From Candidatus Hydrogenedentota bacterium (GTDB lineage Bacteria; Hydrogenedentota; Hydrogenedentia; Hydrogenedentales; SLHB01), in NCBI GenBank assembly GCA_029974275.1, contig JARKSN010000273.1, positions 1-57,610 of the forward strand: a DNA stretch of 57,610 nucleotides. Direction: 5' to 3'. Made by a program: the position numbers. Positions 42,001 through 45,000 of the stretch are shown here, piece by piece (position 1 is the first letter of the stretch; every line of letters starts with the position of its first letter).

Positions 42001-45000
42001 ACGACAAACGCAATGCCGTTGATGGAAAACGTGCCCGATGAGATGGGACCGCCGCCAAAATTGATCGCGTTGAGGGGCGACCCGATATTGACGGCCCCCA
42101 GGTTGACCGTGCTGCGGGTCATGGTTGATCCCGAACCGTTCGTGCTTTGGGTGGCTCCGATTACGTTGATAGCGGCGAGAAAATTGCTCGTGTCGCCCGC
42201 CGCGCCGAAATTGATGATTGCCGTATTGCCTGCGGCGGCATTGGCCAAGGTCACTTTGTCTTCCGCCGGGTCGTACGAGGCCGCAACGCCCGCCGCGCTC
42301 GCATTGATGGCCGTCAAAACATCGTTTAGGCTCTGGATAGCCGGGTCCACGGAAAACGCGACGCCGTTGATCGTGAACACGCCTCCGTTCACCGCGGTTG
42401 CCATGCCGTTGGAGGCCAGCGGAACTGCCGGGTCGACGCCCCCCCCCATCCTCGCGCTGCTCCGGGCGATCGTGGCCGTGGCAAGTTGGCTGACGGTGAC
42501 GGCGTACGTCCCGGACACCACGTCTGATCCGGTGATGGAGACGTTCGCCACCGAACTCGCGCTGGTGGCGCCTGTGAATTTCGTGAACGGAGAGGCGAGT
42601 CTGAAATCCTGGGCGCGACTGCGCAGGGTTTGCAACTGGGTCAGCAGGTTGGAGAGCGCGCTTTTTCGCGAGGTGAGGGTCGTCACCGTGCCCTGCATCT
42701 TGGTGATAGGTTGACGTTCCAACTGCACCAATTGCGAGATGAGGGAATTCGTGTCCAGGCCCGTAATCAGACCGCTCGCCGTGATGGTTCCCGACATACG
42801 CGCCATCTCCGCTTCTTGGCTTCCTGCGCGCTCTCTGAAATGGAAGCGCAGCTACATGCTTACGTCTTTATCGGCAAAAGCGTCAATAGACTTTAGGAAG
42901 CGCCACGCCTTTCAGGAGACTGATAAGGCGTTTTCCATGAAGCACTTGCAAAGAAAACACGATCAAAAATACACCAGGAATCCGTTATTTTTTGTTTTAA
43001 TCTCCGCGTATTCGGCGAAATCAGCATATGCGGAATCGAGATGTCCGGGACCGTTTCCGGTCCCGGACATCACATATGGAGCAGGCCTGTAAGCCGAGTT
43101 CTGTCTAGAGGCTAAAGCCTCCGAGACGGCCATTCATCTGGGACGCACGTCGCCGTGCGCCTCGAGCTTCCAACCCGGGAGCGGAGCGGGCCACTCCATA
43201 GCTCCCCTATTAGGAATTGCTCCGGGTGGGGTTTGACCAGCCGATCTGTCGCCAGACCGCTGGTGCGCTCTTACCGCACCTTTTCACCCTTGCCGGCCCC
43301 CGAAGGGACGTAGGCGGTGTCGTTTCTGTGCCACTTTCCGTCGGGTCGCCCCGCCTTCCCGTTAAGAAGCACCCTGCCCTGTGGAGCTCGGACTTTCCTC
43401 GACGCCACAAGGACGCCGCGACCGTCCGGCCTGCTCGAATGTCAGTGTAGCACATATCGGGGGGAAAGGACGACCTCGGCCTGACGAGGCATGCGGCAAA
43501 AGGACAGGGGCCGCGCGTCAGAACCGCCCATCCTGGTAGGACTGGAAACATGGTGCCGGGAGCGAGACTCGAACTCGCAAGCCCTGTTACGAGCACTAGG
43601 TCCTTAGCCTAGCGTGTATGCCATTCCACCATCCCGGCACGCGCAGAGTGTACAAGATCGCGCGGTGAAGATGCAACTTGACGCAGGGTTGACAGAGGGA
43701 AGATTGAATGGGTATGTTCATGCCCGACGAGCCTGGCCGGGGGATTCGGGAAATGTTTGATCGCGGAAAGAGCGATGGCGTTTGCCGTTTACAAGGGGGA
43801 GATACAAAGATGTTGCGACGCATTGGGGTGGGGTTGTGTGCGTGTTGGATCATGGGGGCGGTTCTGTGCATTGTTCCGGCGGCGGCCGATGATGTCAAGA
43901 AGGGAGAAACGCCGGCGTCTCAGGCTTCTTGCATTGGGGAAGACGGCAAGGACTGTGCCTCTTCGTCCTGGATGGAGGGTTGGTATGTTGTGTGGGGCGC
44001 TTCGAACCTGTTTCCAGGGCTGAAGGAGTCCGAGGCGAAAATCGATCGTCTGCTGAATCGCGGCGTCGGATCGATTTTTCCCCGCTGGGAACGTCCCACA
44101 ACGTTCAAGGATTGGCGCAATGACATGAAGTTGTGGGATGCGTTTGTGGGGGTGGGCCGTCCTATCAACGAGAAATGGAGCTGGACGGGCACGTATGGGT
44201 ATTCGCGCGGCTTGATCCAAAACGCGAAGGTGTATTATCCGCTGGGCATGCCGTTGAAAATGCATGTGAATTTCAAGCGCAGCGTGTATTTTCTGTGCGG
44301 CTCGTTGAGTTATTACCCGTGGGGCGTTCCGAAGCTCGAGGAGACGGATGCGCAGCGGAATGTTCTGGTCCGCATGTTGCGCGGCGCACGCCCGTACGGC
44401 GAATTGACGACCGGCTATGTGCATGTCTCGCGCGAGGGAAATACGTGGGCCACGTTGCCCAATATTGCGCGGCTGTTGCGCTACACGGATGTGCAGCACG
44501 ACAATCTTTTTTACCTGAGCCCTCGCGTGGCCGTGGAGATGCCCATCACGGAGAACGATTCCTTCAATATCATGGTAGGCCGCTTGTTCTTTACGTCGCA
44601 TTCGAAGGAATACGACAGCACGTCGATCTATTTTTTCCACCGTCACCGTTTTTGATCGTGAACGATTGGCGCGTGTGCGTCACTCGACGATCGTCCTCCA
44701 CGTGACGCGACGTTCGGCAGGGCGTTGGGCGTCAACGGGGGCGGAGCAGCGGCATTCGATCGCATATGTCCCTTTTGCGTTGAAGACGTGCGTGAGCGTG
44801 GCGCCGCCATCGGCGGGTTTTCCGTCGATGGTCCATTCGTAGGTTTCATAACCCTTGGGGGCGGGCACACGGAACGTTTGACCGGCGGCGACTTTCCATT
44901 CAATGGGCGCATCATCGGTCGCGACGCCGGTCACGCGAGTCGTCCCGGACCAACTCACGATGCGCGCCGCGCCCTCGGTCTCAACAAGACCCACGGCGTA

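What a model noticed while it worked through the whole genome (the two positions that open the first line are those of the whole stretch)
43551..43638. tRNA-Leu(AAG) replaces tRNA-Leu(GAG) across the order Hydrogenedentales: an A34/inosine leucine tRNA outside Firmicutes [...]
The only tRNA for CUC/CUU here has anticodon AAG; no GAG tRNA is present although CUC (28,575 codons) outnumbers CUU. This is fixed across the order, while the two phylum members outside the order keep GAG. It implies TadA edits a second substrate in a GC-rich diderm lineage, independently of streptococci and lactobacilli.
Evidence so far: ARAGORN and Rfam call it tRNA-Leu(aag) with a clean cloverleaf. One pattern open to A or G at 34 matched 118 of 135 phylum genomes: 114 AAG, 4 GAG (G001 and G002 outside the order, plus G085 and G116); ARAGORN confirmed 37 aag and 4 gag in fetched loci. 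The loop changed with it (CT/TT-AAG-GA vs TT-GAG-GG). tadA is intact (g02148, 59% to B. subtilis TadA). Passages read in 10.64898/2026.05.15.725136 and 10.1101/2023.09.19.555891 place Leu-AAG in Firmicutes/Mycoplasma only; PMC13092985 mentions Hydrogenedentota only for tRNA-Trp.
(Added by a program. Inside this text positions count along the whole contig: contig position 1 is position 1 of the stretch shown here. "Call 12" and the like, gene names such as g00115 and contig names such as C1 are that model's own, and its searches are not shown. The text may have been shortened before it was handed on; [...] marks where a part breaks off. The agent that wrote the report below was given it as the finding of a first reader that could run no searches.)

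Follow-up and report, generated by a model that had tools for sequence, protein, structure and literature searches.

The report
Leucine tRNA with adenine wobble base
A large group of uncultured bacteria swapped the usual leucine tRNA for one whose first anticodon base is A, probably edited to inosine as in streptococci; the swap is real but not unique, as it recurs in several other little-studied bacterial groups.

Summary
Confirmed: a tRNA-Leu(AAG) at 43551-43638(-); no GAG tRNA in the assembly, although CUC outnumbers CUU 1.8:1. Of 133 genomes of the order, 114 have AAG, 2 GAG, 17 neither; both phylum members outside the order have GAG. It is not fixed: G085 and G116 are a nested sister pair that regained GAG. 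'Outside Firmicutes' is not a first: Prochlorococcus and Mycoplasma are in print. My scans add Cloacimonadota (58 of 58 matched genomes AAG), Fermentibacterota (46 of 53) and single records from other phyla; this scan had already noted it in Dependentiae, myxobacteria, CPR bacteria and Clostridia. Editing to inosine by TadA is inferred (about 70%). The loop differs from the genome's own tRNA-Arg(ACG) loop only at position 35, fits the streptococcal TadA motif, and TadA has an open position-35 pocket. Against: no TadA change tracks the switch, the loop is generic, the codon signal is weak, and the one RNA-library contig over the gene shows no change at position 34 (probably precursor or DNA). 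New member of a known kind. What I found no report of: the spread across uncultured phyla, and a GC-rich, CUC-preferring host.

The parts
43551..43638 (-). tRNA-Leu gene, anticodon AAG, long variable arm, A73, encoded CCA
43596..43612 (-). Anticodon stem-loop (positions 27-43), loop CU-AAG-GA; A34 at window 43605. Differs from the genome's own tRNA-Arg(ACG) stem-loop only at pair 29:41 and base 35
43074..43437 (-). rnpB (RNase P RNA class A), 113 nt downstream on the same strand. A neighbour only: an rnpB motif was seen in none of the 29 relatives' loci

Best explanation
The ancestor of the order turned its tRNA-Leu(GAG) into tRNA-Leu(AAG) by G34A, with U32C (in most), G38A and a purine-pyrimidine 31:39 pair. 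The product is charged with leucine, deaminated at A34 by the housekeeping TadA, and reads CUU and CUC as IAG. Little or no enzyme change was needed: the native substrate tRNA-Arg(ACG) already has G37 (loop CU-ACG-GA) and TadA has the open position-35 pocket, so the leucine tRNA is one base from the native substrate. Shown here: the genes, their spread, the origin from GAG, the loop match and the TadA residues. Inferred: charging, editing and decoding.
For: AAG in 114 of 133 order genomes and all 13 families, never together with GAG. Acceptor plus D arms of 30 AAG tRNAs (best BLAST hits to the window, all family f1) are 0.89 identical to G001/G002 GAG and 0.55-0.59 to TAG. Arg(ACG) loop is CU-ACG-GA in 110 of 111 order genomes where it matched. 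All 113 loops fit the S. pyogenes TadA consensus YUAMGRA, and that enzyme edits Leu-AAG fully (10.1101/2023.09.19.555891, passages and section 41). E. coli TadA edits about 15% of an AAG tRNA with an Arg-like loop, A37G abolishes this, and the unedited AAG-G37 tRNA reads U:C at 87:13 (PMC11066159, passages and section 6 part 2), whereas this genome uses CUC 1.8 times as often as CUU. TadA has Gly at the S. aureus G22/E. coli R26 site in 32 of 35 order sequences, none Arg, and no Arg at the E. coli R152 site (pocket logic from PMC10586758 passages). A38 goes with A34: 95 of 121 AAG hits vs 2 of 119 GAG hits, and 46 of 46 AAG vs 0 of 7 GAG genomes in Fermentibacterota.
Against: No direct evidence of inosine. 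The only RNA-library contig spanning the gene (run X6, 357 nt, depth 6.8, a relative) has its 3 differences in the variable arm and none listed at 43605, so it reads A; contigs of that length are precursor or DNA. No TadA residue tracks the switch: the order-specific columns are shared by the reverted G085/G116, the outgroups have the same open pocket, and other AAG lineages lack the Cys of VPxGC, while some have Arg at the R152 site. C32/A38 is a common loop (Leu-TAG, G085 Leu-CAG), so G38A may only reflect release from a GAG-specific constraint. 24 of 121 AAG hits keep UU-AAG-GG. A Mycoplasmopsis genome with the same stem-loop gave no TadA hit at E 1e-15. The codon shift is weak and partly shared with Val.
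Confidence: 0.7

Rival explanations
1. A34 stays unmodified (or only partly edited) and reads CUC by A:C wobble or two-out-of-three reading in the four-codon box, helped by tRNA-Leu(UAG). The loop changes tune ribosome binding, not TadA recognition.
For: Four-codon-box ANN tRNAs are functional and unmodified in E. coli (10.64898/2026.05.15.725136, passages). Unmodified Pro-AGG reads U:C at 56:44 (PMC11066159). No clear U34-hydroxylation pathway was found: CmoB family only a weak partial hit, and the U32 peptidase domain scored below the TrhP cut-off (only the matched domain was scanned), so Leu-UAG may superwobble. G085's GAG and CAG tRNAs are 82 of 86 identical and differ at 32, 34 and 38, showing that 32/38 follows the anticodon without TadA. 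The X6 contig reads A.
Against: Unedited AAG-G37 prefers U 87:13 while CUC is the commoner codon. Both tRNA-Leu(AAG) cases I read that were tested (S. pyogenes, S. mutans) were edited. The loop is one base from a native substrate with TadA present in 128 of 135 genomes.
Confidence: 0.25
2. The AAG tRNA arose from tRNA-Leu(UAG) by U34A or came by horizontal transfer, and the GAG gene was lost separately.
For: The anticodon loop and the 31:39 pair resemble the order's Leu-TAG tRNAs. Cloacimonadota and some Clostridia have nearly the same stem-loop.
Against: Acceptor and D arms match outgroup GAG (0.89), not TAG (0.55-0.59); the G000 acceptor stem is identical to that of G001 and G002 GAG. Acceptor stems differ between phyla.
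Confidence: 0.08
3. Artefact: a sequencing or assembly error, or a GAG gene missed in fragmented assemblies.
For: The assembly lacks tRNA-Ile(GAT); 17 of 133 order genomes show neither tRNA.
Against: AAG in 114 genomes with varied bodies and paired stems; single-contig genomes G034 and G069 have AAG and no GAG match.
Confidence: 0.01

Closest known systems
tRNA-Leu(AAG), edited to IAG by TadA, of Lactobacillales (Streptococcus pyogenes, S. mutans, S. pneumoniae TadA, Oenococcus oeni; 10.1101/2023.09.19.555891, PMC13249217)
   Same: AAG replaces GAG, never both; Leu-UAG kept; loop fits YUAMGRA; single homodimeric-type TadA; CUU raised relative to CUC (weakly here).
   Different: Separate origin from the phylum's own GAG gene; host is 60.6% GC with CUC > CUU, whereas the 15 genera with fixed ANN tRNAs in 10.64898/2026.05.15.725136 are all 60-70% AT; Arg and Leu loops differ only at 35 (35 and 37 in S. 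pyogenes); editing unmeasured; one clade has reverted.
tRNA-Leu(AAG) genes of Prochlorococcus and Mycoplasma (named in PMC13249217, concluding remarks)
   Same: Leu-AAG outside Firmicutes; same loop CU-AAG-GA in the records; editing not shown in what I read.
   Different: Those are AT-rich reduced genomes; here 3-8 Mb genomes spanning GC3 0.33-0.92 in the ribosomal operon.
Canonical bacterial tRNA-Arg(ACG)/TadA system
   Same: Same enzyme (NF008113 passed) and same loop except base 35.
   Different: A second substrate with A35 and a long variable arm is inferred.

Membership tests
tRNA-Leu(IAG)/TadA system of the Lactobacillales type | Intact tRNA-Leu gene with genomic A34 (AAG) | tested here: met
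tRNA-Leu(IAG)/TadA system of the Lactobacillales type | Replaces tRNA-Leu(GAG); never both | tested here: met
   114 AAG, 4 GAG, 0 both, 17 neither of 135
tRNA-Leu(IAG)/TadA system of the Lactobacillales type | [quoted passage not shown] | tested here: met
   NF008113 163.5 > 150; HAE and PCxxC intact in 39 of 39 aligned; Arg(ACG)
tRNA-Leu(IAG)/TadA system of the Lactobacillales type | Anticodon loop fits the YUAMGRA substrate motif | tested here: met
   113 of 113 pattern hits YU-AAG-GA; the pattern fixed 32-37 as YUAAGR, so only G37 and A38 are free results; motif
tRNA-Leu(IAG)/TadA system of the Lactobacillales type | A34 is inosine in the mature tRNA | tested here: inconclusive
   Only contigs were available; one 357-nt contig of a relative spans the gene with no change listed at 43605
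tRNA-Leu(IAG)/TadA system of the Lactobacillales type | Native TadA deaminates the Leu tRNA in vitro | not testable with these tools
   needs a bench assay
tRNA-Leu(IAG)/TadA system of the Lactobacillales type | Leucine codon use shifted towards CUU/CUC equality | tested here: inconclusive
   ln odds ratio of CUU/CUC against six other boxes: 0.49-1.02 in 5 AAG genomes, 0.11 and 0.23 in the two outgroups, 0.62 and 0.82 in the two reverted genomes; against Val alone -0.09 to 0.41 vs -0.11 and 0.11
Unmodified A34 four-codon-box tRNA (Mycoplasma Thr-AGU type) | TadA absent, or loop not a TadA substrate | tested here: not met
   TadA in 128 of 135; loop one base from the Arg substrate. This lowers but does not exclude unmodified A34.

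The most novel reading that the evidence does not exclude
Inosine-34 leucine tRNA is not a lactic-acid-bacteria oddity but a switch that bacteria have made many times (this order, Cloacimonadota, most Fermentibacterota, and others), and reversed at least once. It happens where tRNA-Arg(ACG) already has G37 and TadA tolerates base 35, it proceeds with a coupled G38A change, and it does not need an AT-rich genome. The lineages that keep G38 would be an unedited or intermediate state. These are natural replicates of the first step from one-substrate TadA towards multi-substrate eukaryotic ADAT, and predict UAAG-type mRNA editing in these phyla.
Probability: 0.5. Interest if true: 0.65.

Novelty: new member of a known kind. 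Interest (0 to 1): 0.45.

Why it matters
Papers from 2026 say that almost all bacterial tRNA-Leu(AAG) lies in Bacilli (PMC13249217) and that genera with fixed A34 tRNAs are all AT-rich (10.64898/2026.05.15.725136); both rest on GtRNAdb. An order with GC3 from 0.33 to 0.92, two further phyla and one reversal break that association and give independent replicates for asking why I34 spreads to new tRNAs, what in TadA allows it, and whether codon use follows or precedes it. The system itself is known, so the gain is breadth and testability, not a new mechanism.

Tried and rejected
RNA evidence: 24 runs listed, none holding half of the sampled words; four laid, all contigs, mostly covering rnpB of many organisms; three had no depth on the tRNA. 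No conclusion on editing.

Diagnostic TadA residue: 20 columns are at least 90% conserved in 35 order sequences and differ in at least one GAG genome, but those separating the order from G001/G002 are shared by the reverted G085/G116. The Cys in VPxGC, also in PDB 2nx8, is absent from 11 TadA sequences of other AAG lineages. In Fermentibacterota two columns separate 7 GAG from 17 AAG sequences, but the 7 form one clade (G171 dropped, no sequence extracted).

Contamination as the source of GAG in G085/G116: rejected (sister taxa at support 1.0; tetranucleotide profiles nearest their own genomes among 9 references; GAG body near-identical to G085's CAG).

TadA loss in Fermentibacterota, suggested by G136: rejected, 57 of 61 have it. 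TadA was not found at E 1e-15 in G141, G146 and G148; completeness unknown.

Ancestral Arg state: no tRNA-Arg(ACG) among the 41 RF00005 hits of G001 or among the G002 hits I fetched (not all 42 fetched); G002 has only a 3' half with a GCG anticodon. Unresolved.

Synteny with rnpB: not conserved. Promoter scan: no site on the tRNA strand. Literature searches gave no paper on Leu-AAG in these phyla; 74 was uninformative and 77 returned mostly eukaryote papers. Look-ups of earlier findings by sequence and by phylum names gave nothing. No structure or complex was predicted.

Full report
Observation. The window holds one tRNA gene, tRNA-Leu(aag) at 43551-43638 on the minus strand, 53.6 bits against RF00005, folding as a cloverleaf with a long variable arm. 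It ends in A73-CCA and has the loop CU-AAG-GA. rnpB follows 113 nt downstream; an rnpB motif was found in none of the 29 relatives' loci. The assembly (4.38 Mb, 60.6% GC) has Leu tRNAs AAG, CAG, TAG, CAA and TAA, and no GAG; tRNA-Ile(GAT) is also missing, so absence in this assembly alone is weak. CUC occurs 28,482 times and CUU 15,841 times in 3,630 ORFs chosen by a rough composition filter.

Spread in the phylum. Two patterns differing only at base 34 were run on all 135 genomes: AAG matched 113, GAG 4, none both, and reversed controls 0. G129 adds one AAG that the pattern missed. So of 133 order genomes 114 have AAG, 2 GAG and 17 neither; all 13 families have AAG; G001 and G002, outside the order, have GAG. 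All 113 hits have G37 and A38; all 4 GAG read UU-GAG-GG with C31:G39.

Origin and reversal. Acceptor plus D arms of 30 AAG tRNAs (best hits to the window, family f1 only) are 0.89 identical to the GAG tRNAs of G001/G002, 0.64-0.77 to CAG/CAA and 0.55-0.59 to TAG, so the gene is the GAG orthologue. In a tree of concatenated ribosomal-operon proteins (41 of 135 genomes, 3,773 columns, FastTree) the order is separated from G001/G002 at 1.0, and G085 and G116 are sisters (1.0) nested among AAG genomes. Their GAG contigs are nearest their own genomes in tetranucleotide profile. G085's GAG tRNA is 82 of 86 identical to its own CAG tRNA, differing at 32, 34, 38 and one variable-arm base. I infer one real return to GAG, probably rebuilt from the CAG gene. 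With only two outgroup genomes, the ancestral GAG state also rests on GAG being the general bacterial state.

Mechanism. TadA passes the NF008113 cut-off, is found in 128 of 135 genomes and keeps HAE and PCxxC in 39 of 39 aligned sequences. Its native substrate has loop CU-ACG-GA in 110 of the 111 order genomes where an ACG tRNA matched (G064 has A37), so the leucine loop differs from it only at base 35. In S. pyogenes both tRNAs are fully edited, the TadA consensus is YUAMGRA, and E. coli TadA fails on Leu-AAG (10.1101/2023.09.19.555891, passages and section 41). A review states that S. aureus TadA makes no base-specific contact to C35 (G22) while E. coli R26 and R152 narrow that pocket (PMC10586758, passages). 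The order's TadA has Gly at the first site in 32 of 35 sequences (32 of these 35 genomes have an AAG match) and no Arg at either site; G001 and G002 are the same (of the organisms behind the PDB codes, 2B3J is named and the others are recalled). E. coli TadA edits about 15% of an AAG tRNA with an Arg-like loop, A37G stops it, and the unedited AAG-G37 tRNA reads U:C at 87:13 (PMC11066159, passages and section 6 part 2). A CUC-preferring genome would pay for that. I therefore infer editing by a pre-adapted TadA, at about 70%.

Results against. Nothing here shows inosine. Of four RNA runs laid, all contigs, one contig of a relative (357 nt, depth 6.8) spans the gene and has no listed change at 43605 (29 differences were not shown, but its 3 are accounted for in the variable arm), so it reads A; its length points to precursor or DNA. 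No TadA residue follows the switch, and the Cloacimonadota and Prochlorococcus enzymes aligned have Arg at the R152 site. C32/A38 is also the loop of Leu-TAG in the order and of G085's Leu-CAG, so the loop change may reflect release from a GAG-specific U32/G38 pairing. Unmodified A34 tRNAs of four-codon boxes work in E. coli (10.64898/2026.05.15.725136, passages). A Mycoplasmopsis genome with this stem-loop gave no TadA hit. Codon use: the log odds of CUU over CUC against six other boxes is 0.49-1.02 in five AAG genomes and 0.11 and 0.23 in the outgroups, in the direction reported by PMC13249217, but the reverted pair keeps 0.62 and 0.82, the contrast against Val alone is mixed, and in the ribosomal operon two AAG genomes (G059 -0.05, G032 0.22) lie below both outgroups (0.29, 0.33).

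Wider spread. One GTDB scan, limited to one D-arm type with G37, stopped at 120 rows; 79 of the 80 listed loci hold a Leu(aag) tRNA by ARAGORN. By title: Cloacimonadota 18, Verrucomicrobiota 9, Hydrogenedentota 8, Fermentibacterota 6, Clostridia 6, and 2-3 each of Nitrospirales, myxobacteria, Prochlorococcus-type cyanobacteria, Mollicutes, Deferribacterales, Dependentiae and Patescibacteria (grouping of some titles into phyla is recalled; single MAG hits may be misbinned, and L175 looks so). Sampling 61 genomes of the phylum of L138 (Cloacimonadota) gave 58 matches, all AAG with CU-AAG-GA. Sampling 61 of the phylum of L130 (Fermentibacterota) gave 53 matches: 46 AAG, all A38, and 7 GAG, all G38, on near-identical bodies; Arg(ACG) has G37 in both groups and TadA is in 57 of 61. 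Over all 120 GTDB loci A38 is in 95 of 121 AAG hits, against 2 of 119 GAG hits from a different collection, metagenome contigs (1 GAG hit dropped for an unpaired stem); kin are not independent. 24 AAG hits keep UU-AAG-GG. Arg G37 is not universal among AAG carriers: G138 has A37.

What is known. PMC13249217 (parts 1-4 of 7 read; supplement unreadable) shows I34 in streptococcal tRNA-Leu, says almost all such genes are in Bacilli, and names Mycoplasma and Prochlorococcus. 10.64898/2026.05.15.725136 (passages) finds all 15 genera with fixed ANN tRNAs AT-rich. PMC8007984 (passages) lists Leuconostocaceae and some Firmicutes. PMC13092985 (passages) mentions Hydrogenedentota only for tRNA-Trp; its supplement, covering 42,109 genomes, was unreadable and may list the anticodon. 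PMC3711424 was read in passages. Searches found no report for Hydrogenedentota, Cloacimonadota or Fermentibacterota. Rafels-Ybern et al. 2019 and Diwan and Agashe 2018 I know only as citations and did not read. Earlier notes of this scan report the same tRNA in Dependentiae, GC-rich myxobacteria, CPR bacteria and Clostridia; they are unchecked, though holds AAG tRNAs from such groups.

Verdict. A real, old, order-wide replacement with one reversal; a new member of a known kind; editing likely but unmeasured. Interest 0.45, carried by the breadth across uncultured phyla and the GC-rich host, not by this order alone.

Noticed in passing
Phylum of G135 (L138, titled Cloacimonadota), 61 genomes sampled: All 58 genomes with a match have tRNA-Leu(AAG), loop CU-AAG-GA, none GAG: apparently phylum-wide.
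   Followed up: partly
Phylum of G136 (L130, titled Fermentibacteria), 61 genomes sampled: 46 AAG/A38 and 7 GAG/G38 genomes; the 7 form one clade in a TadA tree and have Ala/Val where the others have Tyr/Phe before the TxEPC motif. A good contrast for a TadA assay.
   Followed up: partly
L129, L142, L152, L153, L184, L189, L206 (Opitutales-type titles): Leu-AAG occurs with both G38 and A38 within one group, as if G34A came first and G38A later; includes a cultured Thalassobacterium strain.
   Followed up: no
L036 and L395 (G085): [quoted passage not shown]
   Followed up: partly
L418:1496-1546 (G002:C78): 3' half of a tRNA-Arg with a GCG anticodon, like an integration-site duplicate; G001 and G002 have Arg TCG and CCG, and no ACG was found, so the outgroups may decode CGY without inosine although they keep TadA.
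   Followed up: partly
L560 (G064:C130): The only order genome with Arg(ACG) A37, next to an Arg(TCG) gene; possibly a foreign contig.
   Followed up: no
G092, contigs C3-C23: 16 copies of one identical 39-nt stretch matched the Arg pattern but is not a tRNA: a dispersed repeat or mobile element end.
   Followed up: no
G000:C97:36-1020: Cluster of four divergent tRNA genes (Cys, Gly, Ala, Val) without encoded CCA, probably from a mobile element.
   Followed up: no
G000:C23:17478-17553: tRNA-Trp(CCA) with an unpaired top of the anticodon stem, as reported for this phylum in PMC13092985.
   Followed up: no
window:36390-49554: Neighbours read by eye from ORF translations, not searched: Tex-like protein, glycosyltransferase, FliS- and FliD-like flagellar genes, CheX-like protein, outer-membrane export-family protein, phenylacetate-CoA ligase-like protein. 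No link to the tRNA seen.
   Followed up: no
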